DNA of 64,000 nucleotides from Phoronis australis (lineage: Eukaryota > Animalia > Phoronida): positions 102,900-166,899 of the forward strand of contig NMRA01000752.1 of assembly GCA_002633005.1 (NCBI GenBank). Reading direction: 5' to 3'. The position numbers were made by a program, and so were the translations under genes. Positions 1 through 57,120 of the stretch are shown here, piece after piece. Positions within the stretch are counted from its first letter, which is position 1. Each line of letters starts with the position of its first letter. The notes under the pieces were generated by a model. That model saw nothing but the letters and a program-made list of their open reading frames with translations, was not told the DNA's origin and searched no databases.

Positions 1-889
1 CACTCCGATTTTGGTAGATTTTTTTTCTGACACCAAGGGATGCTTGAAGATGCCATTTATGCAAAAAAAACCTTCTGTTGCAATTTTTTCTAGGTTGGGC
101 CCTCTGGAGCCCTAGAATGACTGGACTGTTTCACCTCCGTGGCCACTTTCTGGGCACAACGGGAACTTTGCATTAAACCAATCTACAGCTGTTCAAAAGT
201 CAATTTCAAAAAAGTTCCCAAGAGTGCACATGCACGTTTAGTAGGAATTTTAATTTAAAAGCTGGGAAAAATATAACATCAACTAATATGTTAGCCACCA
301 GGTGTCAGTGCAAAATGATCCAAACAGCCAATCAAATGCCCGGAAAATATTGTGTCCATACCTTTCCCCTTCAAAAGTCGTCTGCTTGGCATGAAAACAT
401 TCATCAGAGGACAGTCAGCTGATGTTATCCTGCTGGCTAAGCTAGCTTGTTTACTGCTACTGACTACATTGGATAGTGTTAATGCTTAGATGGGTGTGCA
501 AGTAATAGGCATATACCAAGGGCCAAGGCTCAAAAACCAGCAGGCAGCAGTTAGGAATTGAGGAAAGCCAAATCAAGTGGCTACGAGTGTCATTGTACTG
601 AAACAATTCTTGGCACATTCCTGAATCATTTCGCGTTTTGCAAAGAATAGTTTTGGGACAGCTAAGGCTCTGCTGAAACCATGAATTATTGAACTAGTGT
701 GCAACTTCACAAATAGACTGGCAAGATGTCTGCCCCTTGTTGCATTCATGTGTTAGCTTCTGCTCAAATTTCTGAGCTGGAATTTTCAGATATTACCTGG
801 TCTAAGGCTACTGCAAACAAACGTATCAACATTGAGTGCAAGAGAAGTATCATTGCTGATAAGTTTTTAAGTTTTCGTAGCCCTAAAAA

Positions 890-1905
890 CATCAACATAA
901 ATGAAACATGTGTAAAACTGCTGCAAAAAATATATACAGATGCCACCACCAGAATACACATCGACAACCACGTCTCTGAAAGATTCAACATAGAGAAAAG
1001 AGTTCGACAGGGAGACCCAATTTCACCTAAACTGTTTACACTGACAATGGAAGAGATGTTCAAATCTTCAGACCTTCAAAGGGGAGTAAACATAGACGGA
1101 GAACATCTAACAGACCTAAGATTTGCAGATGATGTTGCTGTGTGCACAGAAGACCTAACACAATTAGAAACAAATTTAAATATACTGAATGAAGAAAGCA
1201 ACAATGTGAGATTAAAGATACACAAGGACAAGACAAAGTACACGACAAATTTTGAAACAGATGAACAAATAATGGTGGAGAACAAGATCATTGAAAAAGT
1301 CACACAATATAAATACCTGGGACAAACTATACTAATGGGAACCGTACGACCAATGAAATACAAATCCGAATAAGGCCTGGATGGAGTTGCTTTGGAAAAA
1401 ACAGAGAAACATTCCAAGATAAGAACCTACCCATATCCCTGAAAAGAAAAGTATTTGACCAGTGCATCATCCCCACAATCACCTATGGATGCCAAACATG
1501 GACCTTAACAAATCAGACAATTGCCAAGCTAAGAACAACACAGAGAGCAATGGAGAGAAAAATGCTTGGAATAAAATTACTAGACAGGATTCCACACACA
1601 GAGATAAGAGAACAAAACAAGAGTCATGGATATAATCAAGGCAATTCTGAAATTGAAATGGAGGTGGAGAGGACACGTGGCCTGAGCACAGGACAACAGA
1701 TGGACCAAAGGTGCACGGAGTGGCAACCCAGATATGGAAAGAGGTCAAGAGGACGGCCCCAAGCCAGATGGAGAGATGACATCGTGAAAACGAAAGGCAC
1801 AACATGGACGAGAGCAGCAAGAGACAGGACAAGTTGGAAGGCATTGTCGGAGGGCGACATCCTGCAGTGGATGGACAACGCCTAGGTGAGATGAGATGAG
1901 ATGAG
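890..1905 (+). mobile_element. 5'-truncated RTE-clade non-LTR retrotransposon (RT C-terminal half, frameshifted)
   Basis: ORFs 726-1373 and 1550-1885 carry VRQGDPISPKLF, LRFADD, YKYLG, MERKMLG and RPQARWRDDI, and end in a (GAGAT)n tail at about 1888-1905. The 5' boundary is approximate. Confidence 0.9.
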
Positions 1906-2243: not shown

Positions 2244-5200
2244 GAGACAGTCCATATAAAAACCAGTAGATTTTCAAAAATCAGTCTATACGTCAAAATT
2301 TAAAATAACTTCATTTTTTGTACATGAGTAGGTATCCTAACATAAATCCAAATGCCAAATTTTGTGCACTCAATGACTCCTAATTTCGCCGCTGGAGCAT
2401 GATAACACAAATTGGCACAATTGGGCATATTAGCTGTCTCAAAAATCGCATGCTTTCAGCAACAAAAATGAGTAACATACAAAATAGATCGAAAGCTATA
2501 TTTTGGTGGTTGGAATAACCAACGTATACTGTACATAATTATGTGCCATTTATCAAAATCTGACAGTTTTGTGCTAGACAGGGGAGATAATCCACAGACC
2601 ACTTTTGGGGGCTAATTTTAGTGGCCATTTTTGTGACCTTCTCACTGCCATAAAACACCTTGTAGCCTTATGTGACGTTTTGAACGTACAGTTAAAGAGT
2701 TAGTCTTGATGACTGAGCAATAAAAAATCTTGCCTCAACTTTGCACCTTAGTGAAAATTGTCTTGCAAAACTGTCTATTTTCATAGTTTGGAAATGACGA
2801 ACAGACTTTACAGACCATTTGAACAAACTTTTAGGCAAGAAGTCTGCTTTAAATAGTTATAGAAACCAAGTCTAAACTCTTTCAAATGAAAACAAGATGT
2901 TTTCCGGATTTATTACGCGGCTAGTATCAAAACTGAACCCGATGACCTTTGCCCACCTTTGAGGGAGTCAGTTGAGGTTAAGCTTGAGGATATATAAAAA
3001 AGGTACGTGTAACCCTCTTGTATTCTTTCATTTCTTTTGCATTATCAGGTTAATTTAAACACCCTGTAGAAATTTTAAATGGAAATACATGTAGATGCCT
3101 TTAAGATTAAACGAGAATGAATTGATAGTTGTAATGACTGGTTTTGAGAGAAGCAAGCGCATTTTAAAAAGACAAAATGGCGGACGATTTCGATGGGCCT
3201 TCATGTTCCTTTAGAGTTTATTCTGCAAAAAATCCGATCACAAAAGCTTTGTGCTTTAGTGAGTTATGTCAAAGACACCACTGAACATTTGCGATACAGG
3301 AAACTACCTCATAAAACAAGGCCTGTGCCAGAGTACGCACTCGTACTACCCAGATTCGGTGAATTTCTGACTGAACAGGACCAGTCATGGAAGAGTCAGG
3401 TAATGCTGGATGTTACTACTCTGCTCCTCTCCTCCTGAACGTAGCAGCCTTGTCAAATTCTACCGGCATTTCTGTTTCGAGATATGACTTAAGTAAAAGT
3501 CAGAATGGAAAGGATCTCTGTGATGGCAAGATCGCTCCACTCAAACAACATGCAAAGTACTTTGCAACCGAAGGTAACAATATCATAAAGTTTCTGGATT
3601 TGAAAGAAGCATTACTTTCCACTGGCCATGTGAAGGGATGTTATGTGTATGCATGTTCAGTCAATGCAACAAAGTCTTTTCCAAAATACTCAGTTCCTGG
3701 TATAAGCACATTCAAAAATTCCCACTATTCCACCCAAGGAATTCGCGTGTGGAAATCATTCCATGCAGGTGACGGTAAGTTCGTACAAGTACTGGGAAAA
3801 TGGGAAACCTATTTCTCTAAAATACACTAACATCTCTAGACGTGGCGGATTTTCATTACCAAGAATTAAGGTTGGCATTGTATCTAGTGAAGAGCCTCAA
3901 CAAAGTTCCCTTGTACCCAGCAAGGTTACTCGAATTTTTTCTTGCTACAGACGTAGAACTAGGTCAGCATTTGGATGTGGGTAACTACACTGAACATTTA
4001 CAGAGGGAAACCACGTATGACCACATCGCACGGCAGTGGTCAGAAGTGCTTTCAGATGCAAGAACCGGAGCGTCATTTGAGGCAGCCTCAGAGTACTATT
4101 TGGATGAGACGAATGATGAAGCAATAGGTTAGGCATTGAAAACAGGTAACGTGTCAACAAGATTTTAAGCAAAGGTAAAGAACTTTGTGACGAACATATT
4201 CGATGAAGGAGATAAGTCAGGTAAAAACGTTCACCCTCGGAAGACCCAAAATGGAGAAAACATTACGAGAACCCACTGGTAAAGTGTTTACCTGTGATAT
4301 TAAGTGAATCGCATATTGGTGGATTTTTTCGAGGTTGTCTGCAGCAATGTTTATGACGATGCAATTTCTGCTGAAGATGTTGTTATATCGTTAGGTTTAC
4401 TGAATGAAGTGGTAAATGAGCTCAACGTTTAGCCTAGTTTTGTATCATACCAGTCAAAGATGTGTGATATATGAAGTCGAGACCGTTACTTCTGTTTACT
4501 TCATGTCTGTCATGAATGAGTCATTAAAAAATTGTCTCTCGTGAATCATTTTCTAATGACTGTGAATGTGTACCTTTTTATACCACTGATGATCACACTG
4601 ACAGAAATATTCAGCGTTAGGGTGCCCGGTGTGTGGGGGGAACACCAGATTTCTGGCGACTGGTGGCGACTAATATTTGTAGAAACCAGCAGGGACATTA
4701 CAATATGAACCCAAAGTTACAATGACTATTGACAAGTTGAAAGATTTTTTGCACTGAACACTAGGGGGGCCATATCCACCTTGGGTGCCATCCTTTGCCT
4801 GTGGCACCAACAAGGCAGATAGAAAACAAGGCAGGGGTGAGTTCAGTAACACTAGAACCTCTTTAAAATTTATCCAAAACCACGTGTTCTCATTTGAAAT
4901 GCAGGGCAATATCTCGCGAAGTCTTGAATTATAGTAAGGTACTCGTGTTACTGCTCTTATTCTAGATGCGTCTTCAGTCTCTACGCAAACAAAAGCAGCG
5001 CCATCTACTCATTTAGAACCCCGCATGCCAGTTGATTTACGTTACATATTTTTTGTAATAAGCAATAATCATCAATGCCGTTTTCAGAGAATGGTAATTA
5101 ATAATGCTGTCTGCCTTTTCTCCAAAAACAAGGTTTTTATTTCGTGTTTCGCAAGCTAATTATATGTTCCAAGAGCCCCCTATTGGCAGCAGAGGCAACT

Positions 5201-13574: not shown

Positions 13575-13895
13575 GAACTTAAGTTTTCATCGAAAAACTT
13601 AAGTTTTTGGTGTGAAAAACTTAAGTTTTCATTCACGAAAACTTAAGTTTTTGACGAAAACTTAAGTATTTTGGAACAAGTTTTTTGGAACGAACTTAAG
13701 TTTTCATAACTAAAGTTTTGAAAACTTAAGTTTTTCAAAAACTTAAGTTTTCTGAAAACTTAAGTTTTAAAAACTTAAGTTTTGGAACAAGTTTTTAGTA
13801 ACAAACATAAGTCATCAAAACTTAAGTTTTTGAAAACTAAGTTTTCCGAACATAACTTTTCAAGGAACTAACTTTTGAAAACTGCAGTTTTCTAA
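13575..13895. repeat. Array of palindromic AAAACTTAAGTTTT units
   Basis: Many perfect and degenerate copies of the 14-bp palindrome, separated by short variable spacers and decaying towards the right. Confidence 0.9.
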
Positions 13896-14767
13896 AAGCA
13901 ATAAGTTTCAATAAGACAGGCATTCAAAAATTTCGACTTTCACTAAAACAAGAGTGGAGTACAGTTACAAATTTAATGATTCTGATAAAGATTTAACAAA
14001 CTAGACTTCTATTAACATTTCATTAACAGTGATTATTTGCAGAAAATAAAATGCACTTCCTAAAATACACTAGATCCTTAAAATAAGTGAACATAAGTGA
14101 AATATCAAAATCTTAAAAACCATTTCAAAAATCAGTTCATCAAGAGTCATGCATACAATGCAGTGAAAACTAAATGAGGGTAATAATATAATTGCATCGT
14201 TCTCAGTCTGTGACAATTATGCGATAACTGAGGGAGAAAAATGGAGTGTACAAAAAGAGAAATCACTATCAAATCATGAAACACAACCAAAGAAAATGTG
14301 GTTACATAGCCAGGAAGGACTACAACAAAAGTCTACATTTCAACAGCAGACTTTTTCGACTAAAATTAAAGCAATGACACCAAGAATAACAAATCACTTA
14401 ATATGCAAAATCCAAGAATATCCGCAGAGACAAAAGCATAACATAAAACGTAACAGGTAACTAAAAGTTTATCGACAATGGCCACAGATCTGATTTTGGG
14501 AAGTACAATACTTATACTAGAAATAGTGCTTAGAATCACTTGTAATTGTTTTCAACCTTAAAAATATCAATTTAAAAGTCAAAGTTTCGTTTTCGTGACA
14601 ATTATAATAACAGAAAATCCAAAACACTCCATGGTGCGAACAAGTTTCACTAAAAGTAAGTACAACCTGGTTATACGAGATGAAAATTAGAAAACTTAGA
14701 CCTTTGACCACAAAAATATTCTTTTTCCTTTACTTTAAAGCTACTGAACTTCATACACATATCTATA

Positions 14768-15264: not shown

Positions 15265-17324
15265 TATGCTAGACCACAAGCCACTTGATCTTCTTTAGCT
15301 GGATCTGCTTGCTTAGCTTCACAGGCAAATAATCCATGTTTTGTGACTACAAAGGCGCGTTTCTGAGCTCAGATAACTGAAATCATAGGTTCATGAGCTG
15401 CAGTTCGTAAGTGCATACGTTGTGTTGTCTGGGTAGCCTTCCTTATCCAGCGATTGTTGAAGGCACACTCTGCAATAAAGACAACAAATTTTAATAACAG
15501 ACGGGTAAAAGCTATCAGTATAAGACAAATAACTTGCTGGATATTTATCGTGCTGTTTATACTACACTGATTTGTAAAACTTCCTGACTTATATCCAGAG
15601 CTTACAAAATAGTCTTCAAACTCAAAATTTAACCAATCACTCTCCAGAATTCAAGTGCAAGACTAGTCTGTAAGTTTACTTCAAGCATGCACTGCAGTGG
15701 GTCAGTTTTCCACATACTGTTTTGAATGAAGTTTTAATCCTGGATTCGCGACTTTCAAAACAATTTTATTCTATATAACTTGAATACAAAACATGCACAT
15801 GGTCACATATCATGCTATTACAATCTAGAACAAATCGTGCATATGATAAAACTTATCATGTTAATAAAAGTTGGATTTCAGGCTAACCAGGTATCGTGTT
15901 CTGTAACTTTTTAGTTCAAGTTCTATGACAAATTAATTAATATTTTTATCAAATGATGAAACTGTTGGCAACTGCAATAACTACAATTAACATTATATTT
16001 ATGAACTTTTCATTATTTTATTCGTTAATCTGATAAGAAAATTCACAACTCTACATAATGAGCAGAGCTAGTTGTATTCTAACTAGCTGTCTCCAGCCAG
16101 CATAGAACTTCTTACTAATGTTTCATGGACATTTAGCCGGCACAACCAGGGTTAGAACTGAAAGTTTAATCTCACATGTATACTTTCGCGTGTACTTTTT
16201 GAAACTTATAGCAAAACCAAGAAGCTGTACATTGACTCTACCAAATGGCTACAAGAATCAGTGAGCTTCTTAAAGATTATAAGCCCATTGGCTAAACCAA
16301 GGACATATTTCATATTGTTTCAAATTCAAACCCTGATAGCAGCACTATTTTTAACTCTTACTCAACAATGAAACATATGAAGCTCTACCTGCCATGTGGA
16401 TGTAGACAGCCCAATTTCACCCCTGGGTGATTGTTTCGATGCAAATGTTTGGCTGTCTAGTTCTTCCAAGTACTCCGCCAAGTTAATAGAGACCTGAAAA
16501 CAATGAGATATTAGCAAACATAACAATAGCTTATAGCTTCTTAAGAATCCAGACATAACCCATTTACAGGGAATTCTATCCGTTTTAGGGGGCCGGGGCC
16601 ATGGCCCCTTAGCTGTCCTCTAAATCCACCATTGGAGATACTGGCATGGTCTTCAGGAGAGGTCTTACGTAACCATAATAGTTTACAGTAAAAATAAAAT
16701 TATCTCATGTACTACAGTGAACATAAAAATAGTATATCCTGTACTCCTACCAATCACTTTACTGGCTGATATTTGCAAAGATATTAAATTGAGGTTCCAA
16801 TCAAATTTGTAGACGGAAATGAATAATAAATGCCCCTACTGACTGTCTAGTCAGTCCATATTCAACTCAACTCCTAGGTAAAGTTGTACCCAGATTAACT
16901 ATCACTTTCACCATGACACTGAAATATTTGCTTTCAATAAAACCATTCAAACTCGCATTGAGTGTGAAAATTTTAAGTGCGACATTCTAGTATTCCACAA
17001 CCTGGTAAAAATTCGAAAGCACATACTCAATCCCAAAGTCAAATCACACAGATTTTCCTTATTTGCATTGAATTATTTGGTGCAATTAGATAGGAATTAT
17101 GCAAGTTTCACTGTGCGTAACAATAGTTAACATCTTGACTGGTGAGAGTTCACTTGGGTACATTGTGACCTATGCCGGGGGTATTCCAGATAGGGTACTA
17201 GTAGTGGGATCGGAATGTCCTTTCGCATTCAATAACCTAGATCCTCCCGACAAATCTGAGCCAATCAGTCAAAATAGGCAATAGAATAGTTACATTGGTG
17301 ATTCCTAATTTTGAGAACCAGGCA

Positions 17325-17560
17325 CATGCACTCACCCAGGGGAAGCTCGAACGAGCACCCCCCACTTGCCGAAGTAGGCATGAAAGGGTCAGCCTCATAG
17401 AAACAAAAAAAATGAGAAAACGAGACACATGTCCACTAAAAAGCTGTAATTCAGGAATGCACTGTGCACAGCTCTGAACATACCCCGTTTTTTTAGTAAA
17501 AGGTCACCATGACCAAAATTTTGAGCACCCCCCATATATTTTAGGATGGGTGCGTGGATG
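17325..17560. mobile_element. MITE with 5-bp TSD (relatives at 37136-37380 and about 43008-43285)
   Basis: Termini CATGCACTCACCC...GGGTGCGTGGATG, flanked by AGGCA/AGGTA. It shares CACAGCTCTGAACATACCCCG with 37284-37304. Confidence 0.6.
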
Positions 17561-17576
17561 AGGTAAGTGAATCTTG

Positions 17577-17811
17577 TGTTGTAATCGGCAACATCATTGG
17601 CCCTTTGTTTTTCCTGTGGCGTCTTGTGATTGGTCTGTTTTTGTGTCTCCTATATAAGTCGTTGGCGCCACTGTCGGACGGGTATTTTTCAAGAACCGGC
17701 AATACGAGTCATCAATGGTTGCTCCACTTGGCGTCAACTGACTGACTGGCTTATATCTTCGTAAAAGTAAGTATTCTTGTGCCTAATCAGTGAACCTGTA
17801 GGAATACAACA
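17577..17811 (+). repeat. 5' LTR (235 bp)
   Basis: TGTTGTA...TACAACA inverted termini, TATATAA at 17651-17657, and a direct repeat of 26640-26886. Confidence 0.95.
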
Positions 17812-17813
17812 TT

Positions 17814-17827
17814 TGGCGTAGTTGGCA
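17814..17827 (+). promoter_or_regulatory. Primer binding site, tRNA-Ser type
   Basis: TGGCGTAGTTGGCA starts 2 nt after the LTR. It matches the complement of the metazoan tRNA-Ser 3' end (TGGCGTAGTCGGCA) with one G:T pair. Confidence 0.8.
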
Positions 17828-18203
17828 CTAGTTAGGGGTACCATAAGAGTATTTAACCGACTAGTTCAGACGGCTTTTACCTGTCCAGGGCTTTTTCTTT
17901 CGTCCGGGGGGAAAGTTGGAAGATTTAGTCGGTGCCGTGCTAACAGGTGGTTAGTACGGTGGCCAAGGGGTTCTTGGTCTTTAGGTAGAGTTGGTTGTAG
18001 GTTGCTTGGGCCTTATTTTTTGGGTTTTTGAGGTTTGTTTTTGGGTTTTTGGGTATTGTTGGGTTTGTTTGCCGGTTCGACTGGGTGTGGTCCCCTTTTT
18101 ACTTAAGTCACGTGGTTGGCAGTGTTTTGGTTATAAACACCGATTCATTCCCTTACCTTTAGCCCTTTTGTAACGGATATATATTGGCCGTTAATAGTCA
18201 ACC

Positions 18204-19781
18204 ATGTCAGTAGGTTTCAAAATTCCTGTTAACTACTGCCGTGAGTCAGACTTGCTAGATTTTCCGGGAGTTGACGAAGATATCGTCCTACAAATAGTTG
18301 ACTTCCGGGAGAGATGCCCTATCGGTCGTCACAATATCTACCAGATATCTGACGATTGGATAGTGACCAGCGCGGTGACTGACCGGGTGGATTATTCCTT
18401 AACCCCCAGTTCAGCTTCCCGAAACTCTGATTTGCCGGCGGGGTTAGCTCAAGTGGCTGACGCTTGCGACAGGCTGAATAGGTCCCCTAGTCCTCGTTTG
18501 GGTAGAACCACTAGATACCAAGTCGATGAGGGTAGGCGCGACAGTGGTATAAGTCCCGGCGTTTATACTCCTCCTAGTAGGCGAAGAGGGTATTCGGGGA
18601 ACATAGGAGGTAGGTATGACAGTGGTCTGGAGCCCGACACTTTTACTTCTCCTGTTCGCCCAAGGGGGTACTGGGCAAATAGAGAGGGAAGGCGCGACAG
18701 AGGCGGAAGTCCCGGCGCAAGAAATGCCAGGGGGTATAAAGTAGATTCGCATGCTCCTCATAATTTAGTTTTCAAGGGCTTGCGTAATACCTGGAAGGAT
18801 TTCCACTGGAAGTTTAGCCGTTTTGCGAGGGAAAACTTCTGGTCCGGGGATAAATGTTTAGCAGAGCTAAGTCTCTGCTGTGAAGGGGATGCACTCCGCT
18901 TTCTTTGTAATTTTACAGAAAGTCGGCCAGACGCATTGTATGACGAAGTAGTAGAAGCAATGAGGAAACGTTTTGGTGTTGCTTCAGGGGTGCCAGGAGT
19001 AGACCAACTACAATTTCACTCCGCATCCCAAAAACAAGCCGAGTCCCTACATCAATGGGCTGACAGGCTGAATCATCTGTATTTTTCGGCCTTTCCAAAC
19101 CCCTCAGATGGTGACCGCCATCAGGCTATACTCAGGTTTTGCTTGGGGTTAAGTGATCAGGATATAGGCAAGCAGGTGTTAAATGGTCGTCCAGAATCCA
19201 TAGACCAAGCACTGGATCTAGCCGTGTGGTTCTCTACGACGAAGGGCCTAATGCCATCGCGTAAGAGTGTTACTTTTAGGGGAGATGAACTGAGCGAGGA
19301 TGTTAGTAGGCTACGTCTCGTCTCTAGTCAGAAAAGGTCGCCCATTAGGTTTTCGCCAATTTCGGGTCGCCAATCCCCACCTGATTCCCCCAACAGTTCT
19401 CCCGGGTCTAGCAACTTAGCAGAGAGGTGCAGAGTGTTAGAGTCACGGGTAGATTTTTTGACAGAGGATAATAAAGCTCTGCATAAACAAATGGACAATC
19501 TGTCCAAAGAAATGAACCAAAATTTCTCTAAAGTTGAAGGTCGTTTTTCTAAAATAGACACCAATTTAGAGAAAATGCTGGGTTTATTAGCCTCGGGCCG
19601 AGCGTCTCCTAGGAAATCACCGTCCAGATCACCCGGCAATTCTCCACGAAAAGCCGGAGAGTGTTTCAACTGTGGGGAGACTGGGCATTATAAATATTCA
19701 TGTCCCAATAAACCATCGGCCAATGTAAGACTAGCCTCAACGTCTCCAGATTGTTTAAACTGGAACGGACTGAAGGACTAG
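18204..19781 (+). CDS. gag: Gag (N-terminal HhH-like motif, capsid region, coiled coil, CCHC zinc knuckle)
   Basis: Intact 525-aa ORF with a major-homology-like QKQAESLHQWADRL segment and the knuckle CFNCGETGHYKYSC. Confidence 0.92.
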   Translation: MSVGFKIPVNYCRESDLLDFPGVDEDIVLQIVDFRERCPIGRHNIYQISDDWIVTSAVTDRVDYSLTPSSASRNSDLPAGLAQVADACDRLNRSPSPRLGRTTRYQVDEGRRDSGISPGVYTPPSRRRGYSGNIGGRYDSGLEPDTFTSPVRPRGYWANREGRRDRGGSPGARNARGYKVDSHAPHNLVFKGLRNTWKDFHWKFSRFARENFWSGDKCLAELSLCCEGDALRFLCNFTESRPDALYDEVVEAMRKRFGVASGVPGVDQLQFHSASQKQAESLHQWADRLNHLYFSAFPNPSDGDRHQAILRFCLGLSDQDIGKQVLNGRPESIDQALDLAVWFSTTKGLMPSRKSVTFRGDELSEDVSRLRLVSSQKRSPIRFSPISGRQSPPDSPNSSPGSSNLAERCRVLESRVDFLTEDNKALHKQMDNLSKEMNQNFSKVEGRFSKIDTNLEKMLGLLASGRASPRKSPSRSPGNSPRKAGECFNCGETGHYKYSCPNKPSANVRLASTSPDCLNWNGLKD

Positions 19782-22700
19782 GTCTAAATTCAGTCCATGA
19801 TTCCCAATCAGGCCTGCCCAAAGATTATTCGACTCTGATTGGTTTGGTGGGAGGGATCAAAAATCAGTTAAAACGTGCAAATAAAAGAACCAAGAAAACT
19901 GTTCGTTCCACGGGGGTTGGGACGGATTCCGAAGATTCTTTCTCACTAGCAGATTCCGACAGTGATTCTAATCCGGGTTCTCTTGCTAGTAAGGATACGT
20001 TGACTGTAGATCCACCTATCAAGTCAGATCTAGATCGAGCGACTCCGAATGTAGAACGGACCGACTCTGATTCAATAAAATCATCGCCGGAGGTAGTAAA
20101 CATATGTAAACTATCTTCAGGTCGTACGTATTATATTCCCATAGAGTTGAAGGGTTTGAGGTTAAATAGTATCCTGGATAGTGGTGCCGATCGTATTGTA
20201 ATTTCTACCAGGGTATCTAAATTTCTCTCGGGCGTCCAAGCCGTGCACGAGGTAAAGGTGACAACGGCCGCCGAAGGTCTGGCTCTTGGGGGGTTCAGAA
20301 CCAATAACATTCCCATTACTATTAATTCCAAAACATATCGAACCTCACTGATAGTTTCGGATATTCAGGACGATTGCCTCTTGGGGTAAGATATCATGAA
20401 ACAATTGGGATGTGTTCTGAACATGAAAGAGGATAAACTGACTATTGAGGGGAAAACAATTCCAATGGAATACGGTAACCCATCCAGATATCTTCCTCCC
20501 GTTGTAGTGAACTCAAATGTTTCAATTCCTGCCAATACGGTGAAGAGGTTAAGTGGGATCGAATTTCCAAAGATTGCCCCCATGGTTATGTTTGATCCAT
20601 CGCCATCTCTAGATCCACGTTTTTCGATACCCCGCTCAATACATGACCCCCAATCCTGTTCTTCCCTTTTTGTTTTCAATTCATCGGAACATGGGGTAAG
20701 ATTAACAGGAGGGACTATCTTAGGGGTAGTGGAACCCGTGGAATCTGAAGGGGTAAAAGATACTCAGGTTCGGGAACACTGCTCAGTTAAGGTAGCTAAA
20801 TCAAAGGAAACTCCTGGGGGTGTTGAGACACTGTCGGGGTGATTACCAAGGCGAACTCCTGGGAATGTTAATGCACTTTCGGGAGGTTTACCAAAAAAGC
20901 TAACTTCGCTGTTTGACCAATCTTCAATTCATTTAAGTGAGGGGGAAAAGTCACAGTTGAAGAAGCTATTGTTAGAATTTGAAGATGTGTTCGCTGCCAG
21001 TGATTTGGATCTAGGAAATTTTACGAAAGTAGAGCATGTCATAGACACCGGGACAGCAAAACCTATTAAAATGGGTATGCGCCGGACGCCAGCCTGTTTT
21101 GTGCAGGAAGAGGATAATCTAAAGAAAATGTTAAATGCAGGAATAATTGTCCCCTCTATGAGTGACTGGGCCGCAGCACCTGTGTTAATCCGAAAGGCTG
21201 ACGGGACAGTGCGTTACTGTATTGACTACAGGGCGTTAAATAGTGTTACCCAAAAAGATGCATGGCCTTTACCATTAATTGAACAATGTATAGACCTTCT
21301 TGCTGGAAATGTTTGGTTTAGTAAGTTAGATGCAAATTCTGCTTATTGGCAAATCAAAATCCGTGAGGAGGACCGTAAAAAAACTGCATTCATTACAAAA
21401 TATGGTTTGTACGAGTTTCGCTCTATGCCTTTTGGTTTATGTGGAGCTCCTAGTACATTTTCTCGGGCCATGAGTCTGGTTTTACGAGGCTTGAACTGGA
21501 ACACGGTATTGGCGTTTCTAGACGACATATTAGTGTTGGGTATCAGTTTCGAGGACCACCGGTCTAATCTTACAGGCGTTCTTGCTCGTTTTCGGGAGTT
21601 CGGCCTGAGATTGAAACCCAGAAAGTGCGCCCTATTTCAAAAGAAAGTAGAATTTCTGGGTAGGACGGTGGGTCCGGAAGGGTTGGAGATGGGAAATGAC
21701 AACATTAAGAAAGTCTAAGAATGGTCTATTCCCCATAGTAAGAAACAGTGTCAAAGTTTCTTGGGTTTTGCAAATTACCATAGGCTATTCATCAAAGATT
21801 TTGCAAAATTAGCTGTACTTCTTTATGAGGTTACAGGGTCGAAGAAAACCTTTCAGTGGGACGACGCACAACAGAATGCTTTCGATCAATTAAAGGTAGC
21901 TCTAACAACACCACCTGTTTTAGCCTTTCCGAATAAAAATGACGAATTTATTCTTGATTGTGACGCCTCTGATAATGCTATTGGCTGTTGTCTTTCCCAA
22001 GTCCAGAACGGGTTGGAGCGAGTTATCTCGTACTCCAGCTTCGCTTTAGTGGACGAACAAAAACGTTATTGTACTACTCGGAAGGAGCTGCTGGCTGTTG
22101 TACGATTTACACACCAGTTCAGGCATTACATCTTGGGTAGGAAATTTAAAGTACGGACGGATCACAGTAGTTTGAGATGGCTTTTAAACTTCAAATCTCC
22201 TTTGGGACAATTAGCTCGTTGGATATTACAGTTACAGCAGTTTTCGGGTATGGAAATAATATACCGTCCCGGAGTTAAACATATCAATGCTGATGCTTTG
22301 TCACGTATTCCTTCGTCCTCCTGCCCGGCGTACAAGCTAGGGGTAGAACCCAAAGACCTTCCTTGTGGGGGTTGTCCCACTTGTTGCAAATGTCATAAGG
22401 AATGGTATAATTTCGTACAGGAAGTTGACGACACTATCCCTCTTGCACAACGCCCCCGGGCAGTTATGGTTGACAAAAGTACCAATACCCGTGCGCGATC
22501 TGTGTATGTGTCTGATGCGCACCAACACTCTCTGTTGGATAGTCAAAACGTTGCAGAAGAGTTTATCCCTGACGACTTGGGTGAGGAGGGGTTTGCATTA
22601 ACTATATGTAATCCCGAGTTGACGGATGTCCCTTGTATGGATGACTGTTTCCTAATCTCCATAGATAGAGAGGATCGAAATCCTTGTTTTGTGAGAGCAT

Positions 22701-24221
22701 TGTCAATAGAGAATGAAACAGACTTTGACCGCAAGCAGAGGGAGGACACAAATCTGACTTTCCTATTTGACTGGTTAGATAATGGTGTTGAACCTTCACA
22801 ATTCCGCTTGTTTATCGCCAGCGCTACGGCCAAATACTGTTGGCTCAATAGGGAGCGGTTTGTTGTGTCGAATAATCTATTATATTGGAAGGCTCCAGAT
22901 GAGGAAGATATTCTAAAACTAGTAGTGCCCGAGTCCTGCAAGTCAGATATTATAAAGCATTGTCATGACTTACCGTCCGCAGGTCACCAGGGAATTGACC
23001 GTACCAAAGCAAAGTTGAAAGCTAAGTATTATTGGCGTGGTATGGCCGCAAGTGTAAAATCTTATATTGAAACATGTGCTGCCTGTAATTTAAATAAGCA
23101 AGGTAGAGGCCGCCATGGTAAGTTTCCCTTAACTACATTCCATGCAGGGGTGCCCATGGAACGCGTCCATTTAGATTTCCTGGGTCCACTCCCTATATCC
23201 GATCAGGGCAATGAATATATCCTCATGATGGTAGACCAGTTTACCAAGTGGGTGGAATGTGTAGCCCTTCCGTCGCAGACGGCAGAGGTCACGGCGAACG
23301 CTGCACTGGACCAGTTCTTTAGTAGATTTGGGTTCCCACTGCAGTTGTTTACCGATCAGGGACGAAATTTTGAAAGTCACTTGTTCCGTCATATTTGTTC
23401 CCTTTTGAAAATCCAGAAAACAAGAACGACTGCGTATAGGCCCTCTTCTAACGGACAATGTAAGCGATTCAATCGTACCCTGATGGATGCAATACGTTGT
23501 TATGTCAGTCGTTTCCAAACTGATTGGGATATGTATTTACCCCAAATTGCTGGTGCTATCCGGTCTTGTGTTAATCGTCATACTGGCTTTACAGCTAATA
23601 AAATGATGTTGGGTCGGGAAATCATTCAGCCAGTAGACCTCATGTATCCACCGCCCTTACAGGATGCTGAGGACCCCATAGGTTATGTAAACTGGCTCTG
23701 TAAAGCGATTACTCAAACTCACGAGATAGCTAGAGGAACATTGCAGACTGCCCAAGCTGTTACGCGATTATGATGTGTCTATGGTCAAACGTTCATATAC
23801 ATGTAGTGTTGGAGATTTAGTCTATGCCCTTGATTCAGCTAGCGTTAAGGGGAAGTGTAAAAAACTATTACCCCCTTGGAAAGGGCCGGCCATTGTTCTC
23901 GAGGTCATTACTCCTTATCTATTTCGAATTAGACACGAGAATTTTGTGTCGGTAGTCAATCATGACCGTCTGAAACTCTGTAAGGATAGGTTTCAGGACC
24001 TACCTATCTGGCTTAAGGGAATGATCCAGGTAAATTCCACAGTGAACCGGGATAGTCTAGCAGAAGACACCGAAGTATACTGTTTTTGTAGGAGACCTGA
24101 TCATGGCGGGTTCATGATTGCTTGTGACGTATGTGATGAGTGGTATCATGGGGAATGTGTAAGCATTACCACTGATGACGCACTGCACATTGACCGGTAC
24201 ATCTGTCCTAGTTGTGAATAA
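19751..24221 (+). pseudogene. pol: pol: protease, RT, RNase H, integrase and C-terminal PHD finger (3 in-frame stops, 1 frameshift)
   Basis: Motifs ILDSGAD; CIDYRALN, MPFGL, FLDDIL; DCDASD, TDH; H..GH..CAAC, LDF, TDQG; WKGP; PHD. Stops end at 20389, 20842 and 21718, and the frame shifts near 23773. Confidence 0.93.
19754..19816 (+). promoter_or_regulatory. -1 programmed ribosomal frameshift signal
   Basis: T TTA AAC heptamer in the gag frame, a 6-nt spacer, then the stem GGACTGAA/TTCAGTCC. pol is in the -1 frame. Confidence 0.8.
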
Positions 24222-24243
24222 CATGGGCTTTGCAATATTTCAG

Positions 24244-24873
24244 ATGTTTCGATGTACCGATGTGAGGTTAAAGACTAATCCGGACTTACCTTGCATTACC
24301 GACGTCCCAAGTGAGCGGGAGGACTCTACGCAGCCACCGCCTCAACCAAGGGAGGAAGATCAATCCCCGGTGCAAGAGGTGTCCGTGATAGCAGCAAATA
24401 CGGGGGAATCAGACATCGACGAGTCTGTCTTAGACGACGACCCGGTCGTAATGGTCTCACCCCCACGGCCTATTAATGTAAATGTGCCCCTGTCAACCCC
24501 CGCAGATTTTCTGACCAGTCCTTCGTCCCCTATGATGGTAGATTCTGCGGTAGTGTCAACAGGTTCCGCAACTACGCCGCTGGCTTCGCTTGGTGAGTCT
24601 ATTTGGGCCCTTCCCGAATACTCCCACGGAGTGCAGATGGCAGAAGCCTTGTTACAACCCACTGATCAATATCAGTGTCCCCTGTGCCCCTTTACCATTC
24701 CTCTCGGTGAAGATGAAATGTTGTGCAAACATATTTTCACATGTCATCTGCCACCCTTGTTTTCAACTAACCAAGCTGACGTGGTTGCCAGCCCTCAGCT
24801 TCATCGAGAGAGATACGACTCTTTGGCCTATCTTTTTTCATTGTTGGAGGGACGTAGCATGAAAACTCGTTAG
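24244..24873 (+). CDS. ORF3 N-terminal part: acidic/Pro-Ser-rich region plus C2H2-like finger
   Basis: ATG directly follows a TTTCAG acceptor-like site, and the ORF contains CPLC-x14-HIFTCH. Probably once joined to the TatD ORF (frameshift near 24870). Confidence 0.55.
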   Translation: MFRCTDVRLKTNPDLPCITDVPSEREDSTQPPPQPREEDQSPVQEVSVIAANTGESDIDESVLDDDPVVMVSPPRPINVNVPLSTPADFLTSPSSPMMVDSAVVSTGSATTPLASLGESIWALPEYSHGVQMAEALLQPTDQYQCPLCPFTIPLGEDEMLCKHIFTCHLPPLFSTNQADVVASPQLHRERYDSLAYLFSLLEGRSMKTR

Positions 24874-24878
24874 ATCTT

Positions 24879-26300
24879 GTGGACAGGTGTAACCTGGTAT
24901 GCCGGGGCTTGAGCCAGCTGCCACGGGTACTCCCCCTTGATCAGATGGCGATGTCGGTAATGTCTACCACATTTGGCTGGGACAGAGTTCCGAGTTTCAC
25001 GTTAACACCTAGACTCAACTCGCCAGCCGCCTGCTTCCACTGGTATGTGATCACTCTTCTGCTCCAAAAATTACCTGAGAGTGACCGTGAGCGATGGTTT
25101 GTAAGTGCACATAATGTGAGGCTCCCTCAGTCCTTCTTGGACTCCTCGTCCGGAGAGGTCGGGCCAACGTCCTTTATAACCCCCAGGCCTCAGACCTCTA
25201 CTTCAGCCACTTCACCCCCCAAAAGACCTCGGACTTATGCCCAGGTTGCTTCCTGTCCTGAGGCTCAGTCTGCACTGCTCCCTCCTGTACCATCCAAGTC
25301 CCAAGTGGAGCGTAAACAGGTTCGTCCAAAGCGGTCGGCGGCGGCAACCACCTCCTCGGCGAAACGATCCGCTAAACTGCCATCTTTGTACGGTCCACAG
25401 TCGACCGCCAATCTGCAGCCTGCTGCATCAGCCCCAAAGCCAGAGGCAGTGGATTCGCATTTCCACCTAGATCGGCTGACCTTCGCGTGCCAACGGTTTT
25501 CCCCCGAATTGGCCGGCCGGCTGCTTACCATCCCTGAGATCACGAATATGACGGCCATGCTCCCTTGCCCCTCAAAAAATCCAGTCCATTTAACAGGGGG
25601 CATAGCGGTATTTTGTGATCCGATTCACTATAAGTTTGTGGAGAAATCCACTGAGGCGTTCCCTTCGGGTTGGAAGACTGCCATAGGCATCCACCCGAAA
25701 AACGCCAAGTCGTACAATCCGGCCATGGAGAAGGAGATTTTCAGGCTCCTCCGGTTGCCCAACGTTGTTGTGCTAGGTGAGTTGGGATTAGAAGAAGGCC
25801 ACGGTTGCGTTGAAGTACAGCAGCGAGTAGTCGTGTCGCTGGTGCGCGGTCTTGCCCGCTTCCAGACGGTTCACGGCACTCGTGTGCTTGTATTGCACCT
25901 TTGCTCCCGGGAGTCCACTTCACCCTTTCACTCTGGTCATCAGTACATGAGACGGTTGCTGAGTGACGTTCTGCCCAGAGCCCAACCAATCCATCTCCAT
26001 TGTTTTTCCAGTAATCCCCAGGAGGTGCGATCATGGATGAAGGCTTTCCCAAATGCCTATTTCGGCTTTGCTGCCACTGCTCGCCACTTTTCCTCTCCCC
26101 AAGCTAAAGCTTTGGCAGCCGTGCCCCTTAATCGGCTTCTTTTAGAGACCGATTCCCCCCATTTAGCGACGTCCTCTCGACCTATGGCCCCATATTTCAT
26201 TAAGGAAGTGGCCTGGAAAATAGCACGCCTGCGTCACTGTAATGCTGACTATTTATTGGAGCACTCGGCCAAGAACGCATGTGTTTTATACCGATTGTAA
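24879..26300 (+). CDS. tatD-like: TatD-family metal-dependent DNase domain protein (TatD domain about 25449-26297)
   Basis: Ordered TatD motifs VDSHFHLD, AIGIHP, LGELGLE, LVLH, IHLHCF, YFGF and VPLNRLLLETDSP in an uninterrupted 473-aa frame. Confidence 0.92.
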   Translation: MDRCNLVCRGLSQLPRVLPLDQMAMSVMSTTFGWDRVPSFTLTPRLNSPAACFHWYVITLLLQKLPESDRERWFVSAHNVRLPQSFLDSSSGEVGPTSFITPRPQTSTSATSPPKRPRTYAQVASCPEAQSALLPPVPSKSQVERKQVRPKRSAAATTSSAKRSAKLPSLYGPQSTANLQPAASAPKPEAVDSHFHLDRLTFACQRFSPELAGRLLTIPEITNMTAMLPCPSKNPVHLTGGIAVFCDPIHYKFVEKSTEAFPSGWKTAIGIHPKNAKSYNPAMEKEIFRLLRLPNVVVLGELGLEEGHGCVEVQQRVVVSLVRGLARFQTVHGTRVLVLHLCSRESTSPFHSGHQYMRRLLSDVLPRAQPIHLHCFSSNPQEVRSWMKAFPNAYFGFAATARHFSSPQAKALAAVPLNRLLLETDSPHLATSSRPMAPYFIKEVAWKIARLRHCNADYLLEHSAKNACVLYRL

Positions 26301-26625
26301 GTCCGGAGAGCGTCTCTAGTGAGTATTTCTACCACTAGGTGTCTGCTCTCCCATCCAGGGGGGTGGGTGGTTCCCCATAAGGGTGACTATTTATTATTTA
26401 TTTCATGTGTTCAGGGGTGCTGGCTCTTTGAACTTATATATTATTTGATGATACTTCTGTTCTTAACCCATGTGTATTATGCTCTCATTCTAGGGGAACT
26501 GTCCGTGTGCTACTAACATACTGAAGTTTCTTCTTTTTTGGAGGGGGGAGGAGGATCAAAATTTTTCGGGTGTTTTTTGATAAATTGGCAATGATGTTGT
26601 TTCCCGGGTGGGTCCCACGCTTTTT

Positions 26626-26639
26626 AGGGAGGAGGGGAA
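26626..26639 (+). promoter_or_regulatory. Polypurine tract
   Basis: AGGGAGGAGGGGAA lies immediately before the 3' LTR. Confidence 0.9.
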
Positions 26640-26886
26640 TGTTGTAATAGGCAACATCATTGGCCCTTTGTTTTTCCTGTGGCGTCTTGTGATTGGTCTG
26701 TTTCTGTGTGTTCCCCGTATGTCTCCTATATAAGTCGTTGGCGCCACTGTCGGACGGGTTTTTTCAAGAACCGGCAATACGAGTCATCAATGGTTGCTCC
26801 ACTTGGCGTCAACTGACTGACTGGCTTATATCTTCGTAAAAGTAAGTACTCTTGTGCCTAACCAGTGAACCTGTAGGAATACAACA
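26640..26886 (+). repeat. 3' LTR (247 bp)
   Basis: Copy of 17577-17811 with about 5 substitutions and one 12-bp indel. Confidence 0.95.
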
Positions 26887-27539
26887 TTTGGCGTAGTTGG
26901 CACAAATTATTGACCTGTAGTGATATGAGATTTCAAAATCAGGAGCTTCCAAGAATTACTACGAACATAGACATAAGCACACACAACCAATGCCAGTATA
27001 CCCAACTTGGGAAATGTTTACACTTTGCCTTGGTAGTCCCCCCCCCCCTTGCATTGATCACACTGACACAACCTCAGAAGACAGAAATATAATAGAGTAA
27101 ATTATAGCCTTATGTGAACGTTATGGCTTCCTCTGATGGACCTCCAGGTGTATATTACGCGTTAGAAGTTTAGATAATTCACACACAGAATGAGTCCATG
27201 TCGGTATGTGACAGCGTGACTCGTTAGTGGCTGACAATAACAGCTGAACTTAACACGTTCGATGGAAATCACACCACCGATTGTGGCCAATCGATTTTAG
27301 AACGCTCTCTGGCACTAACCTGACTTCCAAAACTTGTGAAATGTCTTCTTGCTCGCTCTGCTCGTAGTAATATTAACTTCATTGTCGCGGGCTAGCCACC
27401 ACACGACTTTTTTTCGAAGTTGACTGTCGTTATAAAATTCAAACTGATGACTTCCGGTGGAAACTGCCTTACGAATACAACTCAACACAGAGGAAACTTG
27501 CACAATAACTACGTTTTTTAAGAATTGCATGAGTTCTAT

Positions 27540-52458: not shown

Positions 52459-52585
52459 TTTGGGGGCTAGTCAAGGAGAGTTAAATAAAGGTTTACGTGG
52501 TTGTGTTGAATTGTTTTGAATCCTGTAATTACTGTTTGAATATTAATTAATAAAGTGCATTCTGGGAATAAACCCTTCCTTTCAA

Positions 52586-53905
52586 ATGGATTTTGAAAAG
52601 TATATTGCGCAAGCGAAACAATTCGGTTATACCGGTTTAGAGTTAAGGAAGTGCGCAGAGGAGCTCTTGCGGCAGGCCTCGGAACGTGAAGAGCGCGCCC
52701 ACAAACGAGAGCTGGAAAAGGCAGAGCTTGCACGGGAACAAGCAGAGCGGGCCCAAGCGATTGAGATTGAGAAGCAGAAGACACTGCAACTCCAGATTGA
52801 GATCAAAGCGACACCTAGTGGTGGGGCTCCAAGCAGTGGTGTGCGTACCAGCCGTCCAATACTGCCAAGGTTCGACGAGCGCGTCGAAGACATGGATGCC
52901 TTCCTAGACAGATTTGAGACGTTCGCCACAAGCCAGAAATGGGATAAATCGGAGTGGGCTGTGGACTTGAGTCCATTGTTGACAGGTAAAGGCCTGCAGG
53001 TGTTCAACAACATGCCGTCCGACCAAATTAACAACTATGACCAACTAAAGGTGGCGCTGCTGCACAGGTATGAATTAACCGAAGATGGGTTCCGACGAAA
53101 GTTTAGAGAGTCCAAGCCTGAAAAGGGTGAAAACGTGTTCCAATTCGGGGCAAGACTGAAAAGGTTCTTTGACCGATGGACACAACTGGCGGAGGTCGAG
53201 GTGACTTATGATGGACTCAGATACTTACTGATCCGAGAACAGTTTCTGGGAGTATGCCATCCTGAGATGTCCGTATTCCTGAGGGAACGGAAACCGAAGA
53301 CCTTCGACGAGATGTCGGCCATTGCTCAACAGTACATGGACGCCAACTGTACTGGTTTGTTGGGCAAAGGGTGCGCAAAGAAAGACTTGCGACAGGTAGC
53401 CAGAAGACAGATACCGCCAAGCAACACAGAAGAACGATGGACAGAAACTCCTCGTTCGTCAGTGACCAGAAACAAGGGTGACAAAGAGTGTTTCAATTGT
53501 CATCGGAAAGGTCATCTAGCAAGGGACTGTGGAATGAAAGACTTCCACTCCAAAAGATTCGCTGCAGGTAAGCAGTCGTCGGCCTCGCAGCAGGAACGGG
53601 CCAAGACAGAAGACACCAAGAAGTCGGTAATGTGTCAAGCTGTGGTAGCAAAGGGTAGTCCAATAGAACAGCACATAGTTGATGGCTGTCTGAAATTAGT
53701 CGATGGGACATCAATGCCAGTAGAGAGAGGGGCCTGTGACAAGCACAGAGAGCCTCCCGCTGACCACAACATGCCCGTTTGTGACGGTTACGTCAACGAA
53801 ACAAAAGTACGCATGATGCGTGACACCGGATGCAGTGGTGCAGCGGTGAAGACGTTCCTAGTCAAAGAAAGTCAACTGACGGGGAACAACACATCTGTGT
53901 GTTAA
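52586..53905 (+). CDS. gag: Gag (SCAN-related capsid, CCHC knuckle) and start of protease
   Basis: Motifs YELTEDGFRRKFR, LIREQFL, CFNCHRKGHLARDC and MRDTGCS. Confidence 0.9.
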   Translation: MDFEKYIAQAKQFGYTGLELRKCAEELLRQASEREERAHKRELEKAELAREQAERAQAIEIEKQKTLQLQIEIKATPSGGAPSSGVRTSRPILPRFDERVEDMDAFLDRFETFATSQKWDKSEWAVDLSPLLTGKGLQVFNNMPSDQINNYDQLKVALLHRYELTEDGFRRKFRESKPEKGENVFQFGARLKRFFDRWTQLAEVEVTYDGLRYLLIREQFLGVCHPEMSVFLRERKPKTFDEMSAIAQQYMDANCTGLLGKGCAKKDLRQVARRQIPPSNTEERWTETPRSSVTRNKGDKECFNCHRKGHLARDCGMKDFHSKRFAAGKQSSASQQERAKTEDTKKSVMCQAVVAKGSPIEQHIVDGCLKLVDGTSMPVERGACDKHREPPADHNMPVCDGYVNETKVRMMRDTGCSGAAVKTFLVKESQLTGNNTSVC

Positions 53906-56900: not shown

Positions 56901-57120
56901 TGCGGTATTTGCCATCAGAAAATTTGCGAAGTACTTGTATGGTAAAGAATTTATCATTCATACTGACCATCAACACCTGGCTTACATTCAAAAAAGTAAG
57001 TTAGTCAATGGACGCATCATGAGGTGGGCCTTGTTTTTGCAAAATTATCGATTTAAGGTTGAAGCTATCAAAGGCTCAGAAAATGTTGGTACTGATTACC
57101 TGAGTAGGTTAGAGTATTGA
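53830..57120 (+). pseudogene. pol: pol with integrase preceding RT and RNase H; premature stops
   Basis: HESIVSGH..CGIC, VDLIG, SDCG and ERING come first, then CIDFRPLN and YVDD, then TDASD and TDH. Stops end at 56157 and 56574. Confidence 0.92.

What the first reader, a model, noticed from the sequence alone, without database searches (positions are those of the whole stretch)
24244..26300. LTR retrotransposon carries a TatD-family nuclease where env would be
Seen: between the pol stop (24221) and the PPT/3' LTR lies an intron-free ORF with all TatD motifs in order (DSHFH, GIHP, GELGL, H, HCF, LLETDSP), preceded by a C2H2-like finger and low-complexity linkers. Established: TatD proteins are metal-dependent TIM-barrel 3'-5' exonucleases/AP endonucleases, and third ORFs of Gypsy elements are normally env-like. 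I do not know TatD as a standard LTR-element gene. Inference: this is a captured and retained nuclease. It could process or proofread cDNA, handle abasic sites, or clear cytoplasmic cDNA to avoid DNA sensing. The long non-TatD N-terminus suggests an old lineage gene rather than a recent mRNA capture.
Basis: partly seen in the sequence, partly recalled or inferred. Interest (0 to 1): 0.93.

Follow-up and report, generated by a model that had tools for sequence, protein, structure and literature searches.

The report
Retrotransposon lineage carries TATDN2-derived nuclease
This decayed Gypsy-type jumping gene belongs to an old lineage of marine-invertebrate elements that carry a TatD nuclease gene where related elements keep a viral coat gene; the nuclease is closest to the cell's TATDN2, is likely made from its own spliced message, and would probably act on RNA, but its activity is untested.

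Summary
The TatD gene is real. It lies between pol and the 3' LTR of a complete Ty3/Gypsy element (17577-26902): Pfam TatD_DNase 1.8e-27, TatD fold, all seven catalytic positions present. It is not one ORF here: this copy is frameshifted near 24860-24873, and pol is broken too.

It is a lineage gene. In two host-contaminated symbiont bins, 15 of 15 contigs whose integrase ends in a PHD finger carry this TatD directly downstream. Three more such loci came from metagenomes. These integrases form one clade (100/99). The nuclease nests inside the TATDN2 subfamily, apart from host mollusc TATDN2-type genes, and is under purifying selection (dN/dS 0.13). It adds a conserved C2H2-plus-helical domain with no structural match. 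A splice acceptor precedes its ATG in 17 of 19 elements, and likely-sense RNA steps up there (9.0x vs 0.4x in one run); no splice junction was seen.

Best guess: a separately expressed, RNA-directed accessory nuclease of the TATDN2 (R-loop RNase) type. Activity is untested. Closest known: DEDDy exonuclease ORF3s of rotifer Juno/Vesta. Five paper searches found no TatD-bearing LTR element; Repbase was not searchable. This scan noted the same layout earlier in a sea urchin (e1-7881919).

The parts
17577..17811 (+). 5' LTR, with 7-nt terminal inverted repeats and a GTAAGT donor-like site at 17767
   Evidence: 4 substitutions and 2 indels against the 3' LTR
17814..17827 (+). Primer binding site (tRNA-Ser type; assignment recalled, not tested)
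   Evidence: similar sites follow the LTR in L102 and L168
18204..19781 (+). gag, open frame; PNMA-like capsid region and CCHC knuckle
19712..24221 (+). pol, broken: protease, RT, RNase H, integrase. Stops at 20387-20389, 20840-20842, 21716-21718; frameshift near 23760-23773
24081..24215 (+). PHD finger at the integrase C-terminus; marks the TatD-carrying clade
   Evidence: PF00628 E 2.2e-11
24227..24243 (+). Pyrimidine tract and CAG: predicted splice acceptor directly before the ORF3 ATG
   Evidence: 17 of 19 elements, against 50 of 450 and 203 of 1900 control windows; RNA step
24244..24873 (+). ORF3 first frame: acidic/Pro-Ser low-complexity region, C2H2 finger (24676-24753) and the start of the helical domain; ends at a frameshift
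   Evidence: N-domain profile E 1.2e-7
24858..25448 (+). ORF3 second frame, N-part: rest of the conserved helical domain (about 24876-25088) and a disordered linker
   Evidence: E 1.6e-9
25449..26300 (+). TatD nuclease domain, class II (HxH), TATDN2-derived. H201, H203, E308, H347, H381, E430, D432 present (numbering of the second frame)
26626..26639 (+). Polypurine tract
26640..26886 (+). 3' LTR
26887..26902 (+). Extra 16 nt repeating the spacer and PBS after the 3' LTR; right end of the insertion; no target-site duplication
   Evidence: empty-site joint 17576 to 26903 with 0 shared letters in X1, X5 and X6

Best explanation
This is a dead copy of a Ty3/Gypsy LTR retrotransposon whose lineage carries a third gene encoding a TatD nuclease closest to host TATDN2, likely captured once long ago, likely made from its own spliced message, and predicted to act as an RNA-directed 3' nuclease that would clear RNA from R-loops or structured element transcripts. 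Shown: the element anatomy; the TatD domain and its catalytic residues; tight linkage to a PHD-tipped integrase clade; placement within TATDN2; purifying selection; a conserved acceptor-like site; and an RNA step at ORF3 (about 0.9 for this part). Inferred: splicing from the LTR donor, catalytic activity, RNA as substrate, and the benefit. The likely benefit is that the protein works in trans in the nucleus, removing RNA from hybrids at element copies so they stay transcribed and give co-transcriptional silencing and replication conflicts less to act on. The C2H2-helical domain and basic disordered arm would supply targeting. The PHD finger would steer integration to marked chromatin.
For: Context: 15 of 15 contigs with integrase reaching through the PHD have TatD downstream on the same strand; 1 of the other 106 integrase contigs does (my tally of the tables). 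L002, L003 and L009 show the same order. gag, pol and ORF3 are all open in L098, L102 and L168. Integrase tree: 14 PHD+TatD rows form one group, 100/99. TatD tree: 35 family rows form one side of a branch (SH-aLRT 99) inside a 99-supported TATDN2 group; Elysia chlorotica has both an element-type and a host-type protein. One profile scores 11 named TATDN2 at 165-222 bits, E. coli YcfH 136, human TATDN3 58.5 and TATDN1 52-54. 143 of 163 relatives covering all seven catalytic positions keep all seven. dN/dS is 0.13 in the one close pair, and pN<pS in 190 of 190 pairs. No transmembrane segment in 7 of 7 intact ORF3s, so not env. First-mate-minus depth over ORF3 vs gag-pol: 9.0 vs 0.40 (X7), 6.4 vs 0.88 (X6), 3.0 vs 0.63 (X5), means computed; DNA depth shows no ORF3 excess. 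Human TATDN2 degrades the RNA of R-loops, has minimal activity on plain RNA:DNA duplex and none on D-loops, and needs the two glutamates that match E308 and E430 here by motif (PMC10711561, passages). It protects germ cells (PMC12709183, passages).
Against: No activity was measured. Substrate is transferred from one human protein to a domain at most about 40% identical to anything known. Other TatDs prefer ssDNA or AP sites (PMC10085689, passages). No LTR-to-ORF3 junction was listed. Library strandedness is not on record; X5 and X6 also have opposite-strand reads along the element; reads are mostly 90-99% alike, so from siblings; the three runs are one study, 18-19% read. The TatD tree is a quick LG+G4 search with long branches and lacks eukaryotic TATDN1/3. 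Basic clusters suggesting nuclear import were found in only 4 of 7 intact ORF3s. Many non-PHD contigs end too early to count as TatD-negative. No evidence bears directly on silencing.
Confidence: 0.45

Rival explanations
1. ORF3 is an auxiliary enzyme of reverse transcription. It would enter the particle or pre-integration complex and trim RNA or cDNA ends, displaced strands or abasic sites.
For: TatD enzymes are 3'-5' exonucleases on ssDNA/RNA and AP endonucleases (PMC10085689). Strand-displacement intermediates resemble three-stranded hybrids (inference). This copy's right end keeps a PBS copy and has no TSD, a single odd event that points at cDNA end processing.
Against: The gene is outside gag-pol and appears far more transcribed than gag-pol. 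The element has its own RNase H. Human TATDN2 has minimal activity on plain RNA:DNA duplex. Complete elements in the same bin lack any TatD (L176-L180).
Confidence: 0.25
2. ORF3 is a cytoplasmic counter-defence nuclease that would destroy small RNAs, their precursors or stray cDNA to blunt piRNA/RNAi or DNA sensing.
For: Separate expression like a viral accessory gene. The rotifer DEDDy ORF3 precedent, where a silencing-related role was entertained (PMC5408684 Discussion). TATDN2 cuts hairpin RNA.
Against: No small-RNA or localisation data. The 2'-O-methylated 3' ends of piRNAs resist many 3' exonucleases (recalled). The parent subfamily often has a nuclear-type N-terminus.
Confidence: 0.18
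3. The nuclease fold is kept mainly as a nucleic-acid-binding scaffold; the selected function lies in the C2H2-helical domain or in binding, not cutting.
For: The N-domain is conserved in 111 of 116 long members (most helped build the profile). Earlier scan notes report catalytically degenerate TatD fusions in flatworm elements (e1-8578028, untested here).
Against: All seven catalytic positions are kept in 143 of 163 relatives, and 18 of 20 locus-derived domains keep all five motifs.
Confidence: 0.08
4. The ORF is a passively carried or recent host TATDN capture without benefit to the element.
For: This copy is broken. Rotifer enzymatic ORF3s showed no clear departure from neutrality within a genome (PMC5408684).
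Against: Monophyly with the integrase clade, deep divergence with saturated dS, dN/dS 0.13, and a family-specific domain absent from host-type TATDN2.
Confidence: 0.03

Closest known systems
Juno and Vesta LTR retrotransposons of bdelloid rotifers with DEDDy exonuclease ORF3 (PMC5408684; abstract, methods, passages and Discussion read)
   Same: Gypsy-type element; a non-env, enzymatic third ORF between pol and the 3' LTR; a 3'-5' nuclease with intact catalytic residues; function untested.
   Different: Different fold (TatD TIM barrel vs RNase D-like DEDDy). Here it is tied to a PHD-tipped integrase clade across several invertebrate hosts, under clear purifying selection, and fused to a C2H2-helical domain. 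The paper's passages name no TatD.
Host TATDN2 (class II TatD; human R-loop RNase, PMC10711561; germ-cell genome guard, PMC12709183)
   Same: HxH class II site, both required glutamates by motif, long disordered N-terminus with C-terminal TatD domain; nearest host subfamily by tree and profile score.
   Different: Element-borne and without introns in the loci seen; separate long-branched clade; extra C2H2-helical domain; activity not tested.
env ORF3 of errantiviruses such as Drosophila gypsy (position and splicing recalled; general statement in PMC5408684)
   Same: Position after pol; predicted expression from a spliced subgenomic RNA using an LTR-region donor.
   Different: No transmembrane segment and no env homology; a soluble nuclease fold.
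E. coli TatD/YcfH and human TATDN1/TATDN3 (PMC10085689)
   Same: Same Pfam family and fold.
   Different: Much lower profile scores (52-136 bits vs 165-222 for TATDN2); short stand-alone housekeeping genes.

Membership tests
Ty3/Gypsy LTR retrotransposon | Two direct LTRs with TG...CA ends, PBS and PPT | tested here: met
Ty3/Gypsy LTR retrotransposon | gag, then pol in the order PR-RT-RH-IN | tested here: met
   (protease below the Pfam cut-off in this copy, above it in L098)
Ty3/Gypsy LTR retrotransposon | Target-site duplication | tested here: not met
   Empty-site joint 17576 to 26903 shares 0 letters; right end runs 16 nt past the LTR. Applies to this insertion only; siblings could not be tested
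Named Gypsy clade (MolGy, Mag A/B/C, CsRN1) | RT/IN placement among reference elements | not testable with these tools
   No Repbase/GyDB references available; the tree has unnamed rows only
TatD DNase family (PF01026) | Profile match above cut-off and TIM-barrel fold | tested here: met
TatD class II | N-terminal HxH plus E, H, H, E, D active-site residues | tested here: met
   definition from PMC10085689 and PMC10711561
TatD family | Metal-dependent nuclease activity | not testable with these tools
   Needs an assay
TATDN2 subfamily | Phylogenetic placement within the TATDN2 clade | tested here: met
   quick tree, long branches, no eukaryotic TATDN1/3 rows in the tree
TATDN2 subfamily (host ortholog) | Groups with the host's own TATDN2 and sits at a host locus | tested here: not met
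   Separate clade from mollusc host-type proteins; lies inside LTR elements
TATDN2 subfamily | R-loop RNase activity | not testable with these tools
   Needs an assay
env glycoprotein | Transmembrane anchor and env homology | tested here: not met
   Maximum 19-residue hydropathy 0.97-1.55 in 7 intact ORF3s; no env family hit in Pfam for 52 relatives
Juno/Vesta DEDDy ORF3 | DEDDy exonuclease domain | tested here: not met
   Pfam and fold give TatD only
Spliced subgenomic ORF3 message | Reads joining the LTR donor to the ORF3 acceptor | tested here: inconclusive
   Acceptor conserved and coverage step seen; no junction listed at about 10x depth

The most novel reading that the evidence does not exclude
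A widespread, undescribed Gypsy clade of marine invertebrates is defined by a PHD-tipped integrase plus a spliced accessory gene that joins a possibly new zinc-helical fold to a domesticated TATDN2 R-loop RNase. The element would use it to strip RNA from its own loci and evade co-transcriptional silencing in the germ line. Many public 'TATDN2-like' and 'bacterial TatD hydrolase' entries would in fact be this transposon gene.
Probability: 0.3. Interest if true: 0.88.

Novelty: new variant of a known kind. Interest (0 to 1): 0.72.

Why it matters
LTR elements rarely keep a captured enzyme as a third gene. Here one is kept with intact catalytic residues across a deep clade with at least 150 clusters at 50% identity, and there is a second carrier lineage (L166). 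Its parent, TATDN2, resolves R-loops and protects germ cells, so the gene gives a direct way to test whether retrotransposons manage their own RNA:DNA hybrids or counter RNA-guided silencing. It also flags an annotation trap: the ORF3 of L101 is filed in NCBI as a Sedimenticola TatD hydrolase (P0002), and mollusc relatives carry host-gene-style names.

Tried and rejected
No whole genome is held for the window, so copy number and sibling TSDs could not be counted.

Viral contigs gave no family member: 0 relatives, and 4 weak loci without pol (checked). The metagenome scan stopped at 9 of 64 parts; 6 of its 80 loci were family-level and the rest looked prokaryotic. The genome pattern scan gave 21 loci, of which 8 were family members.

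No RNA holder was listed by index; RNA runs were added by species label. X8 laid only 2 contigs.

The N-domain model (pLDDT 94) has no Foldseek match in PDB or BFVD at E<=0.001, best VIA-align Z 3.3, no Pfam hit and no usable Atlas hit. This does not show a new fold. The Atlas gave only a weak lead for full-length P0006: a nematode TatD cluster at 0.75.

My first N-domain profile ran into the TatD columns and was discarded; one search replaced it. The loose acceptor test (19 of 19, but control 116 of 300) was replaced by a stricter one that I set after seeing those sites. dN/dS was saturated for most pairs; only L086/L102 is a close pair.

The TatD tree used 92 rows of 126 prepared (near-duplicates and surplus bacterial rows dropped; 7 selected proteins had no extractable domain). 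The integrase tree dropped 4 loci (1 duplicate, 3 short).

Paper searches for TatD with LTR retrotransposon (2 hits), retrotransposon (21), Gypsy (3), retroelement (4, 3 listed), and Repbase+integrase (0) listed nothing on this gene (listings only). PHD+integrase+Gypsy (9 hits, listing only) showed none on this clade. PMC6238403 has no 'ORF3' or 'nuclease' passage and PMC8556966 no 'TatD' or 'PHD' passage (term searches only; supplements not read, and their element libraries may include these elements unnamed). Rejected: single intact ORF; env; recent host capture; bacterial origin.

Full report
OBSERVATION. The window holds a complete LTR element from 17577 to 26902. The LTRs (17577-17811 and 26640-26886) differ by 4 substitutions and 2 indels. 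[quoted passage not shown] Reads of the same species label show the empty site inside a high-copy repeat.

The second matches PF01026 over its whole profile (E 1.8e-27). Its AlphaFold model (mean pLDDT 77.8) matches TatD structures first. The two His of HxH, E308, H347, H381, E430 and D432 are present. Most laid DNA contigs and 17 of 26 RNA reads differ from this copy at the break, so the break is probably private to this dead copy. One otherwise invariant motif residue (312) also differs here.

IS IT A LINEAGE GENE? A protein search gave 48 hits. About 41 are relatives at 28-38% identity, many of them long, named from oysters, pearl oyster, abalone, sacoglossans, zebra mussel, a sea urchin and symbiont bins. 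A profile search filled its 150 rows with 50%-identity clusters at E<1e-84. Among 52 long members scanned, TatD was the only shared Pfam domain.

DNA context came from three routes. (i) Metagenome contigs: of 6 family-level loci among 80, three have integrase-PHD directly upstream, two are too short, and one (L004) lacks pol. (ii) A motif scan of prokaryote genomes: 8 of 21 loci were family members, all in two Sedimenticola bins that are evidently contaminated with animal DNA. (iii) Whole-bin searches (150 of 170 integrase candidates scored in G001): 130 integrase matches lie on 121 contigs. All 15 whose match runs through the PHD finger carry the TatD downstream on the same strand. Of the other 106, one does (C1247, a second lineage without PHD). 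Of 18 contigs with a TatD match above 350 bits, 15 have integrase-PHD upstream, two begin inside ORF3, and one has an RT fragment upstream. Many non-PHD contigs end too soon after pol to count as negatives, but five that run through to the LTR or the next copy have no TatD (L176-L180). L098, L102 and L168 have gag, pol and ORF3 all open. In an integrase tree of 34 rows, the 14 PHD+TatD elements, this one included, form one group (100/99).

ORIGIN. In a TatD tree of 92 rows (quick search, LG+G4), 35 family rows form one side of a branch (SH-aLRT 99). They sit inside a 99-supported group with named TATDN2 proteins, apart from the host-type mollusc proteins; Elysia chlorotica has one of each. The tree lacks eukaryotic TATDN1/3 and the family is long-branched, so I added a score test: the same profile gives 11 named TATDN2 165-222 bits, E. 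coli YcfH 136, human TATDN3 58.5 and TATDN1 52-54. The HxH motif makes it class II (PMC10085689, passages).

SELECTION. All seven catalytic positions are kept in 143 of 163 relatives that cover them, out of 176 examined. The one close pair gives dN/dS 0.13 in the TatD domain and 0.4 in the N-terminal part. pN<pS holds in 190 of 190 pairs, most of them saturated.

ARCHITECTURE. Upstream of TatD the family shares a C2H2 finger joined to a helical domain. It folds with confidence (pLDDT 94) but has no clear structural or family match. A profile of it hits 111 of 116 long members (partly circular), both halves of the window's ORF3, and the second lineage. Among 126 other TatDs it hits only P0042, P0133 (weak) and one Patiria 'TATDN2' (P0055) that may itself be element-borne. 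There is no transmembrane segment, so this is not env.

EXPRESSION. A pyrimidine tract with YAG and an ATG within 6 nt lies just after the pol stop in 17 of 19 elements, against 11% of control windows (threshold set after seeing the sites). Donor-like GT(A/G)AG sites lie in the LTRs of the window, L002, L009, L098 and L168 and of L102. In RNA run X7, first-mate-minus depth is 0.72 in the bin before 24243 and 11.6 in the bin after. It averages 9.0 over ORF3 and 0.40 over gag-pol and falls towards the 3' end, which argues against simple 3' bias. X6 and X5 show smaller ratios and also opposite-strand reads. DNA depth shows no ORF3 excess. No LTR-ORF3 junction was listed, strandedness is not on record, and the reads come from sibling copies. 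A separate ORF3 message is likely; splicing is inferred.

MECHANISM. [quoted passage not shown] Fish tatdn2 guards germ cells against R-loop damage (PMC12709183, passages). ORF3 keeps that layout and those residues, lies outside the polyprotein and appears more abundant than gag-pol. I therefore commit to a trans-acting, RNA-directed accessory nuclease that clears hybrids or structured RNA at element copies (0.45). Rivals are a cDNA-processing helper (0.25), a cytoplasmic counter-defence nuclease (0.18), a non-catalytic scaffold (0.08) and passive cargo (0.03). None of the functional steps was tested.

KNOWN KINDS AND NOVELTY. Enzymatic ORF3s are known from rotifer Juno and Vesta elements (DEDDy exonuclease, GDSL esterase; PMC5408684). 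That lead came from earlier scan notes and was then read. Five searches pairing TatD with retroelement terms listed no description of a TatD-bearing LTR element. The library lacks most subscription papers, and Repbase, Dfam and GyDB could not be searched. The scan itself noted the same layout in a sea urchin (e1-7881919) and degenerate TatD fusions in flatworm elements. Those are unchecked notes; my tests used different DNA. Verdict: a new variant of a known kind, interest 0.72. The host of the window is not known; relatives point to marine invertebrates.

Noticed in passing
window 26887-26902 and 17570-17576: The insertion has no target-site duplication, and its right end runs 16 nt past the LTR through a copy of the PBS; it may be an aberrant cDNA end or a non-integrase insertion.
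   Followed up: partly
window 17000-17576 and 26903-27500: The element sits inside a high-copy repeat with 20-40 times higher DNA depth; its type was not identified.
   Followed up: no
window 52547-57120: A second LTR element with SCAN-domain gag and integrase before RT (Gmr1-like order; name recalled); no TatD match in the window outside the finding.
   Followed up: partly
window 18204-18320; L098:1291-3225: Gag of this lineage seems to begin with a helix-hairpin-helix motif (HHH_3, E 0.003, below cut-off, in L098; similar by eye in the window, L102 and L166).
   Followed up: no
   Followed up: partly
L166:7518-9032; L157; L158; L004:1912-3690: TatD ORFs outside the main family that share the zinc-helical domain; L166 follows an integrase without PHD. 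L157-L159 may be the missing ends of truncated neighbours L130 and L133.
   Followed up: partly
L004:242-383 and 3867-4008: A pol-less TatD ORF between LTR-like repeats. The 5' copy stops exactly at a donor site and joins an unrelated exon-like stretch, suggesting a retrocopied spliced transcript.
   Followed up: no
window 23318-25124: A sibling copy with a 1805-nt internal deletion exists in DNA and RNA runs.
   Followed up: no
window 17880-24242: Runs X5 and X6 show steady opposite-strand RNA across gag-pol, possibly antisense or host read-through transcription.
   Followed up: no
window 13577-13901: AT-rich array of 15-17-nt palindromic units.
   Followed up: no
window 717-1373: Another reverse transcriptase fragment (RVT_1, E 7.5e-19).
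   Followed up: no
P0055, P0043, P0049, P0051-P0054: A long-branched TATDN2-like group near the element clades, including a Patiria 'TATDN2' with a weak N-domain hit; may be a third element-borne lineage. No context was available.
   Followed up: partly
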